A stretch of 50,597 nt of DNA from Shigella phage S2_02. Positions 11,243-17,195 of this stretch are shown in pieces. How positions within the stretch are numbered: position 1 is the stretch's first letter; every line of letters begins with the position of its first letter. The stretch lies in the sequence record OQ223306, one strand, 5' to 3'. A model generated the notes under the pieces. The model did not search any database. It saw nothing but the letters and a program-made list of their open reading frames with translations, and was not told the DNA's origin. A program made the position numbers and the translations under genes.

Positions 11243-11260
11243 TAAATGAGATATAATCAA

Positions 11261-11287
11261 GGCTGTCAATTGACGGCCTTTTTTATT
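11261..11287 (+). terminator. Hairpin + T-run between TerL and portal (attenuator-like)
   Basis: GGCTGTCAATTGACGGCC palindrome followed by TTTTTTATT, then SD GGAGGA of portal. Confidence 0.45.
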
Positions 11288-11296
11288 GGAGGAAAC

Positions 11297-12580
11297 ATGA
11301 AAATTGTTAAGCATGATGGATATAACGATATCTTTAACGGCGGTGCAGACGGATCGCCTAAGCCATTCTTTATGTCTGATGCATCATATCACGTAGGATC
11401 TTTCTACAACGACAACGCAACCGCGAAGCGAATTGTGGATGTTATCCCGGAAGAGATGGTGACGGCTGGATTTAAAATGTCAGGCGTCAAGGATGAAAAA
11501 GAGTTCAAGTCTCTGTGGGATAGTTACAAAATTGATTCTAGCTTGGTTGACGTTCTTTGCTGGGCGAGACTATACGGTGGGGCTGCTATTGTGGCAATCA
11601 TCAAAGACAACAGAATGCTAACCAGCCCCGTTAAACCTGGCGCTAAACTTGAGGGCGTGCGTGTTTACGATCGATTTGCAATCACCGTTGAAAAGAGAGT
11701 AACCAATGCTCGATCGCCTCGCTATGGTGAGCCTGAGATATACAAGGTATCTCCTGGCGATAATCTTCAACCTTACTTAATCCACCACACAAGAATTTTT
11801 ATTGCTGATGGTGAGCGAGTAACCCCTCAGATTCGCAAGCAGAATCAGGGGTGGGGTGCTTCAGTTTTGAATAAGTCACTGATTGATGCAATCTGCGACT
11901 ACGACTATTGCGAATCACTTGCGACTCAGATCCTGCGGCGTAAGCAACAGGCGGTATGGAAGGTCAAAGGTCTTGCCGAAATGTGCGATGATGACGATGC
12001 TCAGTATGCTGCGCGCCTGCGACTTGCTCAGGTTGATGACAACTCCGGAGTAGGCCGTGCGATCGGTATCGATGCTGAGACGGAAGAATACGATGTTCTA
12101 AACTCTGATATCAGCGGAGTGCCTGAGTTCTTATCGAGCAAGATGGATCGTATTGTTTCCCTTTCAGGGATTCATGAGATTATCATCAAAAATAAGAACG
12201 TAGGCGGCGTATCAGCGAGCCAAAACACAGCGCTTGAGACTTTCTATAAGCTGGTAGATCGTAAGCGTGAGGAAGATTACAGGCCTCTTCTTGAGTTCTT
12301 GCTGCCGTTCATTGTTGACGAGCAAGAGTGGTCGATCGAGTTTGAGCCTTTGTCTGTTCCGAGTAAGAAAGAGGAATCAGAGATCACGAAGAATAACGTT
12401 GAGTCAGTCACGAAAGCTATCACTGAGCAAATCATCGATCTGGAAGAAGCTCGAGACACGTTGCGATCCATTGCCCCTGAGTTCAAACTCAAGGATGGTA
12501 ATAACATCAACATTCGCGAACAGGAAGAAACAACCGAACCGGAACCGGGATTAGGGGAGAAGTTAGAAGATGAAAATTAA
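11297..12580 (+). CDS. portal protein (427 aa)
   Basis: ORF-track frame 11246..12580; ATG 11297 has SD GGAGGA; size and position after TerL. Confidence 0.85.
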   Translation: MKIVKHDGYNDIFNGGADGSPKPFFMSDASYHVGSFYNDNATAKRIVDVIPEEMVTAGFKMSGVKDEKEFKSLWDSYKIDSSLVDVLCWARLYGGAAIVAIIKDNRMLTSPVKPGAKLEGVRVYDRFAITVEKRVTNARSPRYGEPEIYKVSPGDNLQPYLIHHTRIFIADGERVTPQIRKQNQGWGASVLNKSLIDAICDYDYCESLATQILRRKQQAVWKVKGLAEMCDDDDAQYAARLRLAQVDDNSGVGRAIGIDAETEEYDVLNSDISGVPEFLSSKMDRIVSLSGIHEIIIKNKNVGGVSASQNTALETFYKLVDRKREEDYRPLLEFLLPFIVDEQEWSIEFEPLSVPSKKEESEITKNNVESVTKAITEQIIDLEEARDTLRSIAPEFKLKDGNNINIREQEETTEPEPGLGEKLEDEN

Positions 12581-13333: not shown

Positions 13334-14446
13334 ATGAAGGCAAAGCAAAGATTCGATTCAGTAAAAATCAAGGCTCACTTTGATGATAACGGTTTTTTAG
13401 TTGACCGCCCAATCGTGGCGCGAATCGGCGCTCAGGTTTACAAAACGCCGCACGGCGATCGAGTTGAGTTCCGTCCGGCGTCCGAAGTTTTCAAGCAAGA
13501 TTCCTTGCAAAGTTTTGCAGGCAAGCCGATCACAGTCGGTCACGTAACGGTGACACCCCAAAATGCTAAGGATGTTGTTGTCGGATCGTGTGCTGGCGCT
13601 GGTATTGCTTCAGGGGTTGGCGTTGAAGTTCCTTTAAGTATTTACAGCGACTACGCGATCAGTAAAGCTAAAGCGAAGGAGGCCGGGGAATTATCTGTAG
13701 GGTATACGTCGGTAGATATTGATAAGCCAGGCTGGGGTTCAAATGAGACTGGAGAATATATCTTCGAAGAGGATATGAAACAGGACGAAGCGCCGCCTGA
13801 AGGTTGGGTGAAATTCGACGCGGTACAAACTAATATCAAGGTCAACCATATCGCCCTAGTTTTTAAAGGTCGTGCTGGAATTGCTAAATTAAACCTTGAT
13901 GCCGAACAGGAGTTCCCGTATGATAATAACGTTCAATTAACTAACGAGGACAAGCAAATGAAAAAAATTAAGATCGACTCAGTTGATGTGGAAGTAACCG
14001 AAGACGTTGCGAACCATATCGAAAAATTAACCGCGCAGATTGCCACCATTCAGGGGAAAGCTGATGGCTTTGAAGCTGAGCGCGATGCGCTGAAGGTTAA
14101 GGTTGACTCTCTGCCGGAACTTGTGAAGGCCGAGGTAGAGAAGCAAAAAGCCGATGCCGCCGCACGCGCAGAAGTTACCGCAGTAGCAGAAACCGCAGGC
14201 GTCAAACATGATGGTCTTGATATCAAAGACGTCAAGATTGCCGTAGTTAAAGCCATGCTTGATAAAGATGTTAGTGAAAAATCAGACGCATATATCGACG
14301 CTATGTTTGATGTTGCTAAAGATTCTGATATCATGGCTATTCAGCGTAAAGCAGTAAAAGGCGACTCTATCGAAGGCGGTAAGCCGGAAGAGAAAAACGA
14401 CGCCGCGCCTGTTACGCCAAATTCACGTTTAAGCAAAGTAATGTAA
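13334..14446 (+). CDS. putative capsid scaffolding / prohead-protease-like protein (370 aa)
   Basis: ORF-track frame 13295..14446; ATG 13334 has SD AGGAGA; C-terminal half is Ala/Glu/Lys-rich coiled-coil-like. Confidence 0.45.
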   Translation: MKAKQRFDSVKIKAHFDDNGFLVDRPIVARIGAQVYKTPHGDRVEFRPASEVFKQDSLQSFAGKPITVGHVTVTPQNAKDVVVGSCAGAGIASGVGVEVPLSIYSDYAISKAKAKEAGELSVGYTSVDIDKPGWGSNETGEYIFEEDMKQDEAPPEGWVKFDAVQTNIKVNHIALVFKGRAGIAKLNLDAEQEFPYDNNVQLTNEDKQMKKIKIDSVDVEVTEDVANHIEKLTAQIATIQGKADGFEAERDALKVKVDSLPELVKAEVEKQKADAAARAEVTAVAETAGVKHDGLDIKDVKIAVVKAMLDKDVSEKSDAYIDAMFDVAKDSDIMAIQRKAVKGDSIEGGKPEEKNDAAPVTPNSRLSKVM

Positions 14447-14457
14447 GGGGAAATATC

Positions 14458-14934
14458 ATGGCACAAATTAATGCATCTTATCAGCGAGATATGGCGATTG
14501 CGCTTCCGGGTATGGTTGCGGATACTTCAAAGTACAATATTGACGGCGCTTGTGTCGTTAATGAAGGTGATGTTCTTGTTGGCGCTGCCGTACAGGTCGT
14601 TCAAGCTCAGGCGGTTGATGGTCATAAGTTGGTTAAGGCTCTTACTACCGGAGCAACTCCTTACGGCGTGGCAATCCGATCTCACTGGCAGACTGTTAAC
14701 GCTCAAAATCAGATGATTTACGAAGATGGCGGCGCTATCAACGTGATGACTTCAGGTCGAGTATGGATGCTTTCCAAATCCACCGAAGCACCAACTTTCG
14801 GCTCTGCCGTTAAACTTGATGTTGATGGTCAGGAAAAATCTGATGGCACGATCGAAACAACCTGGACCTACGCTGGCGGTTGGACTAAATACAAAGATAT
14901 TCAGCTTGTTGAGGTTCAGTTGCATCAACTGTAA
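14458..14934 (+). CDS. capsid-associated protein, paralog A (158 aa)
   Basis: ORF track; shares N-terminal motif TSKYNIDGACV...GAAVQVV...TPYG with 14996..15763. Confidence 0.5.
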   Translation: MAQINASYQRDMAIALPGMVADTSKYNIDGACVVNEGDVLVGAAVQVVQAQAVDGHKLVKALTTGATPYGVAIRSHWQTVNAQNQMIYEDGGAINVMTSGRVWMLSKSTEAPTFGSAVKLDVDGQEKSDGTIETTWTYAGGWTKYKDIQLVEVQLHQL

Positions 14935-14948
14935 TTAGCGTTTAATAT

Positions 14949-14982
14949 GGGGACTATCCTTTTTTGGATAGTCCTTTTTTTA
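14949..14982 (+). terminator. Rho-independent terminator between capsid paralogs
   Basis: 9-bp stem GGACTATCC/GGATAGTCC, T6 loop, T7 tail. Confidence 0.65.
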
Positions 14983-14995
14983 TGGAGAAATCATT

Positions 14996-15763
14996 ATGGC
15001 TTACGAAAATTTAATGTTGCGCCCAGCGTGTCCGGGAAATCTTTCTGATACTTCAACCTACAATATTGATGGCGCTTGCGTGGCTCAAGGTGACATTGAG
15101 TTCGGCGCGGCGGTTCAGGTTGTCGGCATCGTTGATGGTGTAAAAGTCGTCAAAGTACTTTCTGATGGCGGGACTCCTTACGGTATCGCTTTCCGTTCTC
15201 AATATGAACACCTGAGCGGTAAAATTCTCGACGGCGAAGTTTGCAACGTCGTTTCTCACGGTCGCATGTGGGCGCTTACTTCTCTTGATGAGGCTCCCGG
15301 CTTGTTCTCAAAGTTGCAGTTTGGATCTGGTGGAGTTGTTACTGGTGGGTCTGGTTCCGCAGGATGGACCTTTGCTGGCGGCTTTGTTAAGCATGAAGAT
15401 GGCTACATTATTGAGGTTCAGGTGAAACAAAATGCTTTCATTGTTCCACCGCCGCCGCCCCCTGTCGTTCTTGTTGAATCCGCTACAATCACCACTGACA
15501 AGGAAAGCCCTCAGCCAAACAACGTTACGATCCAGTGTGTAGCTAATGTTATTCCAGCTAATGCAACTGATAAGACTGGCAAGTGGTCAATAGACGCTAC
15601 CAATATCGCTACTATCGATCCTGACTCAGGTCTTGTAACTCCTGCTGGTGGAGAATCGGTCGGTGATTTCAATATCACATGGACGGCTAACGATGCCAGC
15701 AAGACGACGGCAACCATTGCTTATCGCGTAGAAGCAGTGCCAGAGCCAGAGGTTGATGCATAA
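14996..15763 (+). CDS. capsid-associated protein, paralog B, with poly-Pro linker and Ig-like C-terminal domain (255 aa)
   Basis: ORF track; N-terminus paralogous to 14458..14934; PPPPPP linker; C-terminal beta-rich segment resembling Big_2-type Ig domain. Confidence 0.5.
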   Translation: MAYENLMLRPACPGNLSDTSTYNIDGACVAQGDIEFGAAVQVVGIVDGVKVVKVLSDGGTPYGIAFRSQYEHLSGKILDGEVCNVVSHGRMWALTSLDEAPGLFSKLQFGSGGVVTGGSGSAGWTFAGGFVKHEDGYIIEVQVKQNAFIVPPPPPPVVLVESATITTDKESPQPNNVTIQCVANVIPANATDKTGKWSIDATNIATIDPDSGLVTPAGGESVGDFNITWTANDASKTTATIAYRVEAVPEPEVDA

Positions 15764-15775
15764 CATAAAAACACT

Positions 15776-15803
15776 TTGACGCTTTAACAAAAAGTGCTAT
15801 TAT
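15776..15803 (+). promoter_or_regulatory. Putative sigma70-type promoter for major capsid gene (TTGACG-16-TATTAT) with box copy in the spacer
   Basis: TTGACG 15776-15781, TATTAT 15798-15803; reverse-orientation box 15781-15801 fills the spacer. Confidence 0.45.
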
Positions 15804-15806
15804 TGA

Positions 15807-15836
15807 AGCCGTGAACATAATCACGGCTTTTTTATT
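15807..15836 (+). terminator. Hairpin + T-run upstream of major capsid gene
   Basis: GCCGTGA-acataa-TCACGGC followed by T6. Confidence 0.5.
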
Positions 15837-15854: not shown

Positions 15855-16814
15855 ATGACTACTAAAAAATTTGATGAAGCAGATAAAAGCAATGTTGAAA
15901 TGTATCTGATCCAGGCTGGCGTAAAACAGGATGCAGCCGCAACAATGGGTATCTGGACCGCTCAGGAACTACACCGCATCAAAAGCCAATCTTACGAAGA
16001 AGACTATCCGGTAGGGTCAGCACTACGAGTATTCCCGGTTACAACCGAACTCTCTCCTACCGACAAGACGTTTGAGTACATGACCTTTGATAAGGTTGGT
16101 ACTGCTCAGATTATCGCTGACTATACCGATGACCTGCCTCTGGTTGATGCACTTGGTACTTCTGAATTTGGTAAGGTGTTCCGTTTGGGTAACGCGTATC
16201 TGATCTCAATTGATGAAATCAAAGCAGGTCAGGCAACTGGTCGCCCACTGTCAACTCGCAAGGCAAGCGCTTGTCAGTTAGCACACGACCAACTGGTTAA
16301 CCGCCTGGTGTTCAAAGGTTCTGCTCCGCACAAGATCGTGTCTGTGTTCAATCATCCGAACATCACCAAAATCACCTCGGGTAAGTGGATGAATGCAGCA
16401 ACTCCGAAGCCGGAAACTGCTGAAGCGGAATTGACTCAGGCGATCGAAACCATCGAGACGATTACACGCGGCCAGCATCGTGCAACCAACATCCTGATCC
16501 CTCCGTCCATGCGTAAGGTTCTGGCGATCCGTATGCCTGAAACTACCATGTCTTACCTGGACTATTTCAAGTCTCAGAATGCGGGTATCGAAATCGACTC
16601 CATCGCAGAGCTTGAAGATATCGACGGTGCGGGTACTAAAGGCGTGCTGGTGTACGAAAAAAATCCGATGAACATGTCCATCGAGATCCCGGAAGCATTT
16701 AACATGCTGCCAGCGCAGCCGAAAGACTTGCACTTCAAAGTGCCTTGCACCTCTAAGTGTACTGGTCTTACAATTTATCGCCCGATGACTATTGTCTTAA
16801 TTACTGGCGTGTAA
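15855..16814 (+). CDS. major capsid protein (319 aa)
   Basis: ORF track; size, position in head module, own promoter and terminator; not verified by homology. Confidence 0.65.
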   Translation: MTTKKFDEADKSNVEMYLIQAGVKQDAAATMGIWTAQELHRIKSQSYEEDYPVGSALRVFPVTTELSPTDKTFEYMTFDKVGTAQIIADYTDDLPLVDALGTSEFGKVFRLGNAYLISIDEIKAGQATGRPLSTRKASACQLAHDQLVNRLVFKGSAPHKIVSVFNHPNITKITSGKWMNAATPKPETAEAELTQAIETIETITRGQHRATNILIPPSMRKVLAIRMPETTMSYLDYFKSQNAGIEIDSIAELEDIDGAGTKGVLVYEKNPMNMSIEIPEAFNMLPAQPKDLHFKVPCTSKCTGLTIYRPMTIVLITGV

Positions 16815-16821
16815 TATTATA

Positions 16822-16848
16822 GGGGCTAACTTAGTTAGTCCCTTTTTT
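16822..16848 (+). terminator. Rho-independent terminator after major capsid gene
   Basis: GGGGCTAA/TTAGTCCC stem (one G-T) followed by T6. Confidence 0.6.
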
Positions 16849-16863
16849 ATTGGAGAAATCAAA

Positions 16864-17156: not shown

Positions 17157-17183
17157 AAGGCGCTCACGTAGCGCCTTTTTTTA
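17157..17183 (+). terminator. Rho-independent terminator
   Basis: AAGGCGC-tcacgta-GCGCCTT followed by T7. Confidence 0.6.
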
Positions 17184-17195
17184 TGGGGGTAAATT

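What the first reader, a model, noticed from the sequence alone, without database searches (positions are those of the whole stretch)
14458..15763. Tandem paralogous capsid-associated genes separated by a terminator; second copy has a poly-Pro linker and Ig-like domain
The two proteins share an N-terminal domain. Only the second has PPPPPP followed by a beta-rich module resembling a bacterial Ig-like domain, as in capsid decoration proteins. A strong terminator sits between them, suggesting different stoichiometry.
Basis: partly seen in the sequence, partly recalled or inferred. Interest (0 to 1): 0.5.

Follow-up and report, generated by a model that had tools for sequence, protein, structure and literature searches.

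The report
Phage T1 capsid cement protein pair

Summary
The window is a T1-like coliphage, 99.6% identical to phage ADB-2. Gene A (14458-14934, 158 aa) and gene B (14996-15763, 255 aa) are paralogues: 43% identity, E = 2e-33. Both match Pfam Phage_cement. Only B carries a six-proline run (P151-P156) followed by a Big_2 Ig-like domain. An 11-bp hairpin with a U-tract lies between them (14949-14983).

All of this is already known. The proteins are 95-99% identical to T1 gp49 and gp48, which are resolved in cryo-EM capsid structures (PDB 9kzj, 9kmg, 9kmh). The T1 head carries 80 gp49 homotrimers and 60 heterotrimers of one gp48 with two gp49. That gives 360 gp49 and 60 gp48 per capsid. The curated T1 GenBank record already annotates both decoration proteins and the terminator.

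- **Pair and terminator:** both are present in all 17 Drexlerviridae loci examined, and the terminator stems differ in sequence between lineages.
- **Gene history:** all A copies form one clade, while the B copies fall outside it, do not cluster together and are far more divergent. Among 16 scanned, B carries 0, 1 or 2 Big_2 matches.
- **Promoter:** a conserved promoter-plus-hairpin cassette precedes the major capsid gene.

That the terminator sets the 6:1 ratio is plausible but untested.

The parts
13334..14446 (+). Upstream head maturation protease/scaffold gene (DUF2213). It ends 11 nt before gene A, so gene A is probably co-transcribed with it.
   Evidence: Pfam DUF2213 and PHROG 530 'head maturation protease'. 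The start at 13334 is inferred from the 1113-nt CDS annotated in T1.
14445..14451 (+). Shine-Dalgarno-like AAGGGGA for gene A.
   Evidence: Read from the sequence. T1 annotates an RBS at the equivalent place.
14458..14934 (+). Gene A: the major cement/decoration protein, 158 aa, orthologue of T1 gp49 and FCWL1 gp28. The cement domain covers residues 4-155.
   Evidence: Pfam Phage_cement E = 2e-30. PDB 9kmg_a E = 1.6e-102, with one substitution in 158 residues. PMC11945409 gives 360 copies per capsid.
14949..14983 (+). Intrinsic-terminator-like element between the paralogues: 11-bp stem at 14949-14976, 6-nt loop, then a U-tract.
   Evidence: z = -3.85. Annotated as a rho-independent terminator in T1. 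A hairpin plus U-tract is present at this position in 17 of 17 Drexlerviridae loci, z = -3.1 to -5.9, with different stem sequences.
14984..14987 (+). Shine-Dalgarno GGAG for gene B, immediately after the U-tract.
   Evidence: Sequence and the T1 RBS annotation.
14996..15763 (+). Gene B: the minor cement protein with an Ig-like display domain, 255 aa, orthologue of T1 gp48 and FCWL1 gp29.
   Evidence: PDB 9kzj_H E = 2.5e-162 and 9kmh E = 4.9e-158. PMC11945409 places one gp48 with two gp49 in each of 60 heterotrimers.
15017..15424 (+). Cement domain of gene B (residues 8-143), paralogous to gene A.
   Evidence: Pfam PF22758 E = 3.1e-17. 43% identity to A.
15446..15463 (+). Six-proline linker (P151-P156).
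   Evidence: Read. A five- to seven-proline run is present in the T1-group, AV106 and Sip homologues, but BrunoManser/IME-JL8 and the K50/Salmonella 36 homologues have their C-terminal extension without it.
15521..15715 (+). Big_2 bacterial Ig-like domain (residues 176-240 of gene B).
   Evidence: Pfam PF02368, 35.4 bits against a cut-off of 22.8. PHROG Ig-domain families. Weak PDB matches to the Ig domain of a tail tube protein, 8hqz, E = 2e-4.
15776..15803 (+). Sigma-70-type promoter-like site TTGACG-16-(TG)cTATTAT in front of the major capsid gene.
   Evidence: 10 of 12 matches with an extended -10. Recognisable in all 13 loci compared; the automated scan scored it 8-10 of 12 in 11 of them. 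Annotated as a promoter in T1.
15805..15836 (+). Second hairpin plus U-tract. It starts 1 nt after the -10 hexamer.
   Evidence: Annotated as a terminator in T1.
15855..16814 (+). Major capsid protein, the binding partner of both cement proteins (T1 gp47 orthologue).
   Evidence: Pfam PF09950 E = 1.9e-62 and PHROG 264. PMC11945409.

Best explanation
The two genes encode the paralogous capsid cement proteins of a T1-like siphophage (family Drexlerviridae, genus Tunavirus). Gene A is the T1 gp49 orthologue and gene B the T1 gp48 orthologue. After the T=7 shell of major capsid protein forms, trimers of the cement domain bind at the threefold and quasi-threefold positions and clamp neighbouring capsomers. 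Eighty positions take A3 homotrimers. Sixty positions take A2B heterotrimers. That gives 360 A and 60 B per head, or six A and one B per asymmetric unit. The N-terminal arm of A reaches the inner surface of the shell. B sits on the outside and holds a flexible Ig-like domain away from the capsid on a proline linker. This much is shown by published cryo-EM of near-identical proteins. The rest is inferred here. A is probably transcribed with the upstream head genes. The conserved intrinsic terminator after A probably lets only a fraction of transcripts continue into B, which would match supply to the 6:1 demand. A conserved promoter just before the next hairpin would then restore high expression for the major capsid protein. 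The Ig domain probably mediates weak adhesion to cell-surface or environmental glycans. That function was proposed by the T1 authors and has not been tested.
For: Identity: 99.6% DNA identity to phage ADB-2 and 96.9% to T1. Gene A matches PDB 9kmg_a at E = 1.6e-102, and gene B matches 9kzj_H and 9kmh at E = 2.5e-162 and 4.9e-158. Architecture and copy numbers: PMC11945409. The single gp48 chain in 9kzj fits one B per asymmetric unit. Domains. Terminator: and its retention in 17 of 17 loci across at least eight genera. Within that set Sip has a two-sided U-A to C-G change, and the K50, Salmonella 36, haarsle-group and ESP2949-1 lineages carry wholly different stems. No conserved promoter was found in the A-B spacer: candidates score 6-9 of 12 and their -35 hexamers lie in coding sequence. 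A strong conserved promoter does lie in the B-MCP spacer. The pair is old: all A copies form one clade, and B copies fall outside it and are more divergent.
Against: There are no transcript or protein-level data for T1 late genes in the searchable library, so termination efficiency is unknown. Terminator-like hairpins follow many genes in this genome: T1 has about 20 annotated, four of them in a row here. The one after A is therefore not unique. A shares its transcript with the portal gene, which is needed in only 12 copies, so translational control must also matter. Which sites take B may be fixed by capsid geometry regardless of supply. My own structure prediction of B failed (pLDDT 34.6). 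The Ig fold therefore rests on the Pfam and PHROG matches and on the published AlphaFold3 model.
Confidence: 0.9

Rival explanations
1. The 6:1 stoichiometry is set entirely by capsid geometry. Only one class of quasi-threefold sites accepts a B-containing trimer. The hairpin after A is then just one of the many operon-punctuating terminators or 3'-end stabilisers of this genome and plays no specific part in tuning B.
For: The copy numbers are exact symmetry-related numbers, 80 and 60 (PMC11945409), as expected for site-specific binding. Hairpins with U-tracts also follow B, the major capsid gene and orf46. About 20 terminators are annotated in T1.
Against: The hairpin is retained at exactly this junction in 17 of 17 loci despite complete turnover of its sequence, which argues for selection on this element. 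The two ideas are compatible: geometry could fix incorporation while the terminator economises on synthesis.
Confidence: 0.35
2. The hairpins act mainly as RNA stability elements rather than as terminators. The one after A would protect the 3' end of the upstream head-gene message. The one just downstream of the capsid-gene promoter would form a protective stem-loop at the 5' end of the capsid mRNA.
For: The hairpin before the capsid gene begins 0-4 nt after the -10 hexamer. Promoter-initiated transcripts would therefore start inside or at its 5' arm. In distant genera (haarsle, RCIP0096, Henu7, ESP2949-1) that hairpin has only a weak U-tract, which is poor for termination.
Against: The A-B hairpin keeps 5 to 8 U among the 9 nt that follow the stem in all 17 loci, the signature of an intrinsic terminator. 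A pure stability element would not need a U-tract.
Confidence: 0.2
3. Gene B is primarily an adhesin-display subunit, like T4 Hoc, and its cement domain is only an anchor. Its structural contribution to the capsid would be dispensable.
For: B sits only on the outer surface, whereas the arm of A inserts into the shell. The T1 authors suggest its C-terminus may aid adsorption (PMC11945409). The number of Big_2 matches varies from 0 to 2 among relatives, as expected for an adaptive surface module.
Against: Six of the 16 B homologues scanned have no C-terminal extension and no Ig domain at all, yet the B paralogue is still retained. B therefore has a role independent of Ig display.
Confidence: 0.25

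Closest known systems
Coliphage T1 gp49 and gp48 (PDB 9kzj) and phage FCWL1 gp28 and gp29 (PDB 9kmg, 9kmh)
   Same: These are orthologues. A differs from the deposited gp49/gp28 chain by one residue in 158, and B is about 92-95% identical over its cement domain to gp29 and gp48. Gene order, spacer, terminator and downstream promoter are the same.
   Different: There are only a few amino-acid substitutions. The window is closest to phage ADB-2 rather than to T1 itself.
Pfam PF22758 Phage_cement (E217 gp24, Pam3 gp6) and PF23982 (XM1 gp53 minor capsid protein)
   Same: Both window proteins pass the curated thresholds of both families. They are trimeric cement proteins at capsid threefold positions.
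   Different: The namesake proteins match only distantly in sequence: PDB 8hdt 'Cement' matches A at E = 4.5e-5. I did not examine their loci, so I do not know whether they also have a second, Ig-bearing paralogue.
Lambda gpD and TW1 gp56 trimeric decoration proteins
   Same: They share the beta-tulip fold and the trimeric clamp at threefold and quasi-threefold sites of a T=7 HK97-fold shell, according to PMC11945409.
   Different: No detectable sequence match appeared in the PDB search at E <= 1. In the published comparison those proteins are trimers anchored only to the outer surface, whereas the gp49 N-terminus inserts into the shell. From general knowledge they are homotrimers of a single gene product.
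Herpesvirus triplex (one Tri1 with two Tri2)
   Same: The T1 paper lists the herpesvirus triplex proteins among structural analogues of the cement-domain fold. From general knowledge, the triplex is likewise a 1:2 heterotrimer clamping capsomers at local threefold positions.
   Different: This is a eukaryotic virus with no sequence relationship. In herpesviruses all triplex sites are heterotrimeric, whereas T1 mixes 80 homotrimers with 60 heterotrimers.
Ig-domain capsid display proteins such as T4 Hoc, and Big_2 modules on phage tail tube proteins
   Same: They display an outward-facing Ig-like domain that may mediate weak adhesion. B's Ig module matches the PHROG families 'structural protein with Ig domain' and 'major tail protein'.
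   Different: From general knowledge, Hoc binds at hexamer centres and is not fused to a cement domain. Here the Ig module is fused to a paralogue of the cement protein.

Membership tests
T1 gp49/gp48 orthologue pair (Tunavirus capsid cement proteins) | Near-identical sequence to the proteins modelled in the solved capsids | tested here: met
   A against 9kmg_a: E = 1.6e-102, 157 of 158 residues identical. B against 9kzj_H: E = 2.5e-162. B against 9kmh: E = 4.9e-158.
T1 gp49/gp48 orthologue pair (Tunavirus capsid cement proteins) | Synteny: protease, then A, terminator, B, promoter/hairpin, then major capsid protein | tested here: met
   The same gene order is found in 17 of 17 Drexlerviridae loci.
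T1 gp49/gp48 orthologue pair (Tunavirus capsid cement proteins) | Presence in virions as 80 A3 and 60 A2B trimers | not testable with these tools
   Known for T1 from PMC11945409. For this phage it is inferred from 95-99% protein identity.
Pfam PF22758 Phage_cement | HMM score above the curated gathering threshold (27 bits) | tested here: met
   A scores 106.3 bits and B scores 63.5 bits.
Pfam PF22758 Phage_cement | Beta-tulip fold | tested here: inconclusive
   My single-sequence AlphaFold2 model of B was unusable: pLDDT 34.6, pTM 0.18. The fold is reported for the T1 orthologues in PMC11945409.
Pfam PF02368 Big_2 (bacterial Ig-like domain, group 2) | HMM score above the gathering threshold (22.8 bits) | tested here: met
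   B residues 176-240 score 35.4 bits, E = 1.1e-8. Supported by PHROG 215, 1280 and 341.
Pfam PF02368 Big_2 (bacterial Ig-like domain, group 2) | Ig-like beta-sandwich fold | tested here: inconclusive
   The prediction failed. In the T1 map this region is flexible and was modelled only with AlphaFold3.
Intrinsic (rho-independent) terminator | A G+C-containing stem-loop immediately followed by a U-tract on the coding strand | tested here: met
   11-bp stem, 6-nt loop, then TTTTTAT; -17.4 kcal/mol; z = -3.85.
Intrinsic (rho-independent) terminator | Structure conserved while sequence changes | tested here: met
   A hairpin plus U-tract is present in 17 of 17 loci with at least eight different stems. 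There is one clear two-sided compensatory change (Sip, U-A to C-G), several one-sided changes that keep pairing, and wholesale stem replacement in distant genera.
Intrinsic (rho-independent) terminator | Transcripts actually end there, and with what efficiency | not testable with these tools
   No paper in the library combined Drexlerviridae with RNA-seq, terminator and promoter.
Lambda gpD-like decoration proteins | Detectable sequence similarity to gpD or its family | tested here: not met
   gpD is absent from the PDB sequence hits at E <= 1, and no gpD Pfam family matched. The resemblance is in fold and role only, as reported in PMC11945409.

The most novel reading that the evidence does not exclude
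The unpublished part is regulatory and evolutionary. The B paralogue is retained family-wide even where it has no Ig domain. B would therefore be an ancient symmetry-breaking cement subunit, specific for one class of quasi-threefold sites, onto which Ig modules were repeatedly gained and lost. Its 1:6 supply relative to A would be set by a conserved leaky terminator. A conserved promoter, overlapping a second hairpin, would then reset expression for the major capsid protein.
Probability: 0.4. Interest if true: 0.3.

Novelty: already known. Interest (0 to 1): 0.12.

Why it matters
It matters little as a discovery. The proteins, their fold, their positions on the capsid and their copy numbers were published in 2025, and the curated T1 GenBank record already carries the annotation.

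- **Practical value:** many T1-like genomes still label these genes 'hypothetical protein', and some call gene A a 'putative zonula occludens toxin'. That label is a false virulence flag for phages considered for therapy.
- **Engineering:** the B protein is a natural scaffold that displays 60 copies per head, and its Ig module is demonstrably exchangeable (0 to 2 Big_2 matches among relatives). This could be useful for phage display.
- **Gene regulation:** the terminator and promoter layout offers a simple, testable case of matching gene dosage to capsid stoichiometry.

Tried and rejected
- **Structure prediction:** single-sequence AlphaFold2 of gene B gave an unusable model (mean pLDDT 34.6, pTM 0.18), so no fold search was run.
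- **Promoter in the A-B spacer:** I looked for one that would make B independently transcribed. The best candidates score only 6-9 of 12, are not conserved, and have their -35 hexamers inside the conserved 3' end of gene A. I rejected this idea.
- **Formal pair counting:** the MAFFT alignment of the A-B spacers placed gaps inconsistently within the stem. I read the stems locus by locus instead.
- **Literature:** searches found no transcriptome of any Drexlerviridae phage and no open copy of the FCWL1 structure paper. Two 'heterotrimer / cement protein' hits, for phi92 and Jabs, were irrelevant.
- **RNA genes and opposite strand:** the Rfam and tRNA scans of the window found nothing. Minus-strand ORFs under the two genes are all 68 aa or shorter and have no support.

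Full report
**1. What is in the sequence**

Gene A is 14458..14934 (158 aa) and gene B is 14996..15763 (255 aa). BLASTP between them gives 43% identity over 143 residues, E = 2e-33.

Both proteins pass the curated thresholds of Pfam PF22758 'Structural cement protein (E217 gp24/Pam3 gp6)' and PF23982 'XM1 gp53 minor capsid protein'. Only B has an additional Big_2 Ig-like domain, at residues 176-240 (35.4 bits against a cut-off of 22.8). PHROGs places both in phrog_1989. It also matches B's C-terminus to Ig-domain structural and tail families.

The six-proline run is P151-P156 (DNA 15446-15463), read directly.

The 61-nt spacer holds an 11-bp hairpin at 14949-14976 followed by TTTTTAT. Its centroid energy is -17.4 kcal/mol, with z = -3.85 against dinucleotide shuffles. 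A GGAG ribosome-binding site for B follows directly.

The neighbours are head genes. Portal, MuF-like protein and DUF2213 protease lie upstream. The major capsid protein (PF09950) and a DUF7444 protein lie downstream. Minus-strand ORFs under the two genes are short (68 aa or less) and unsupported.

**2. What it is**

The region is 99.6% identical to Escherichia phage ADB-2 and 96.9% identical to coliphage T1. Full-length matches occur in 56 T1-like phage records.

A sequence search of the PDB finds both proteins in solved structures:
- Gene A matches 9kmg_a ('Decoration protein | cement protein II') at E = 1.6e-102, with one substitution in 158 residues.
- Gene B matches 9kzj_H ('BIG2 domain-containing protein') at E = 2.5e-162.
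- Gene B matches 9kmh ('Decoration protein gp29') at E = 4.9e-158.

Comparison with the translated loci shows that 9kzj carries the T1 gp48 sequence and 9kmh the FCWL1 gp29 sequence.

The T1 cryo-EM paper (PMC11945409, Viruses 2025) reports the following:
- The T=7 head has 415 copies of major capsid protein gp47.
- It carries 80 gp49 homotrimers and 60 heterotrimers of one gp48 with two gp49, at threefold and quasi-threefold axes.
- Both cement domains have a beta-tulip fold, like TW1 gp56, lambda gpD and the herpesvirus triplex proteins.
- The N-terminus of gp49 inserts to the inner surface of the shell, whereas gp48 sits only on the outside.
- Residues 154-255 of gp48 form a weak, flexible protrusion that was modelled with AlphaFold3 and was proposed to aid adsorption.

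These numbers give 360 A and 60 B per head, which is six A and one B per asymmetric unit. The single gp48 chain in 9kzj fits that count.

The curated T1 GenBank record AY216660 already annotates, in order, 'capsid decoration protein', 'terminator, rho-independent', 'IgG-domain-containing decoration protein', 'promoter', 'terminator' and 'major capsid protein'. FCWL1 is annotated likewise.

*(a) Distribution.* I fetched 16 further loci spanning Tunavirus, Warwickvirus, Badaguanvirus, Sertoctavirus, Tlsvirus, Hanrivervirus, Henuseptimavirus, Kyungwonvirus and two unclassified Klebsiella phages. All have the order protease, A, B, major capsid protein.

*(b) History of the pair.* In a neighbour-joining tree of the cement domains, all A copies form one clade. 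The B copies lie outside it and are much more divergent. A is 48-100% identical to the window's A, whereas B's cement domain is 28-100% identical to the window's B. The duplication therefore predates the family, and B evolves faster than A.

*(c) The Ig module is optional*. I scanned 16 of the 17 B proteins by Pfam or read them off as near-identical. Salmonella phage 36 was not scanned.

| Big_2 result | B homologues |
|---|---|
| No match, and no C-terminal extension (144-168 aa) | IME347, haarsle, BEK12A, RCIP0096, ESP2949-1, Henu7 |
| No match, but an extension of about 100 aa | K50 (the unscanned Salmonella 36 also has such an extension) |
| One match | the window protein and its close T1, FCWL1 and UP30 relatives; Shfl1 (below threshold, 18.8 bits against 22.8); BrunoManser/IME-JL8 |
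| Two matches | AV106, Sip |

Because B is kept without any Ig domain in six of the lineages sampled, its core role must lie in the cement domain itself.

*(d) The terminator is conserved as a structure.* Every one of the 17 A-B spacers has a hairpin followed by 5 to 8 U among the next 9 nt, with z-scores of -3.1 to -5.9. At least eight different stem sequences occur:
- Sip shows a two-sided U-A to C-G change.
- UP30, AV106 and BrunoManser show one-sided changes that keep pairing.
- K50, Salmonella 36, the haarsle group and ESP2949-1 have entirely different stems at the same place.

*(e) Promoters.* There is no conserved promoter in the A-B spacer. The B-to-capsid-gene spacer carries a conserved sigma-70-type promoter, TTGACG-16-TGcTATTAT, scoring 10 of 12 with an extended -10. 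It is recognisable in all 13 loci compared. The -10 hexamer ends 0-4 nt before a second hairpin in the 11 loci where the automated scan placed it.

**4. How it most likely works**

Shown by published structures of near-identical proteins:
- A3 and A2B trimers clamp capsomers at local threefold positions.
- B displays an Ig-like domain outward.

Inferred here:
- A is co-transcribed with the upstream head genes, since only 11 nt separate it from the protease gene.
- The terminator after A passes only a fraction of polymerases into B, which would fit the six-fold lower requirement.
- The promoter before the capsid gene restores high expression for the 415-copy protein.
- The hairpin overlapping that promoter's start region may both stop upstream read-through and give the capsid mRNA a structured 5' end.

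Caveats:
- No transcript data exist in the searchable library.
- Terminator-like hairpins are common in this genome.
- A shares its transcript with the 12-copy portal gene, so translation must also be tuned.
- Site-specific binding could fix 60 B per head regardless of supply.

**5. Rivals**

I considered three alternatives. They are geometry-only control of stoichiometry, the hairpins acting as RNA-stability elements, and B acting primarily as an adhesin anchor. Each is set out with its evidence in the rival-explanations section. None of them changes the identity of the genes.

**6. Comparison and novelty**

The genes are orthologues of T1 gp49 and gp48, so every tested membership criterion for that pair is met. 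They belong to Pfam Phage_cement by the curated threshold. They resemble lambda gpD and TW1 gp56 only in fold and role, with no sequence match. From general knowledge, the 1:2 heterotrimer also parallels the herpesvirus triplex.

The finding is correct but already known. The residual unpublished content is comparative and regulatory, and of modest interest.

**7. Dead ends**

- Single-sequence AlphaFold2 of B failed (pLDDT 34.6).
- The MAFFT alignment of the spacers was not good enough for formal pair counting.
- Two literature hits were irrelevant.
- The Rfam and tRNA scans were empty.

Noticed in passing
window 15776-15836: A strong sigma-70-type promoter (TTGACG-16-TGcTATTAT) ends 1 nt before a hairpin with a U-tract, just upstream of the major capsid gene. 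Transcripts starting at this promoter would begin inside or at the 5' arm of the hairpin. The element might therefore terminate upstream read-through yet spare, or stabilise, promoter-derived capsid mRNA. The promoter is recognisable in all 13 Drexlerviridae loci compared. The U-tract is weak in distant genera.
   Followed up: partly
window 14949-14983, 15805-15836, 16821-16849, 17157-17184: Four consecutive hairpin-plus-U-tract elements each bracket a single gene: A, B, the major capsid gene and the DUF7444 gene. This is an unusually fine punctuation of a late operon. All four are annotated as terminators in T1.
   Followed up: partly
L011:2744-3217, L012:2584-3096 (also the aaroes, tonn, slyngel, JLBYU41 and PHB07 records): Homologues of gene A, a capsid cement protein, are annotated 'putative zonula occludens toxin' in Salmonella phage 36 and in several later records that appear to have copied it. 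This looks like a propagated mis-annotation that wrongly flags a virulence factor. In Salmonella phage 36 gene B is labelled 'scaffolding protein SbcC-like protein'.
   Followed up: partly
window 11246-11299: The mechanical portal ORF starts at ATG 11246. However, a hairpin with a U-tract (11259-11280), then GGAGG, then ATG 11297 lie inside its first 17 codons. The real start is therefore most likely 11297, as in the T1 annotation (427 aa). FCWL1 annotates the longer 444-aa form.
   Followed up: partly
L004:2038-2838: Shigella phage Shfl1 gene B carries an exact tandem duplication of 12 residues (KPDNATNKTGVW twice) inside its Ig module. This makes it 266 aa, and its Big_2 score falls below the Pfam threshold.
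   Followed up: no
L007:2518-3075: Phage IME347 gene B (164 aa) stops just after a PEPEPE-rich tail. The same reading frame then continues as an acidic, proline-rich stretch for about 20 codons beyond the stop codon. There is no Ig module, and the spacer to the capsid gene is 150 nt instead of about 90 nt. This looks like a degraded or lost C-terminal domain.
   Followed up: no
L005:2042-3058, L006:2008-3021: AV106 and Sip gene B proteins (338 and 337 aa) carry two Big_2 domains in tandem after the proline linker. The displayed module has therefore been duplicated in some lineages.
   Followed up: partly
window 1-50597: No tRNA genes were found, and no Rfam family reached its gathering score anywhere in the window.
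   Followed up: yes
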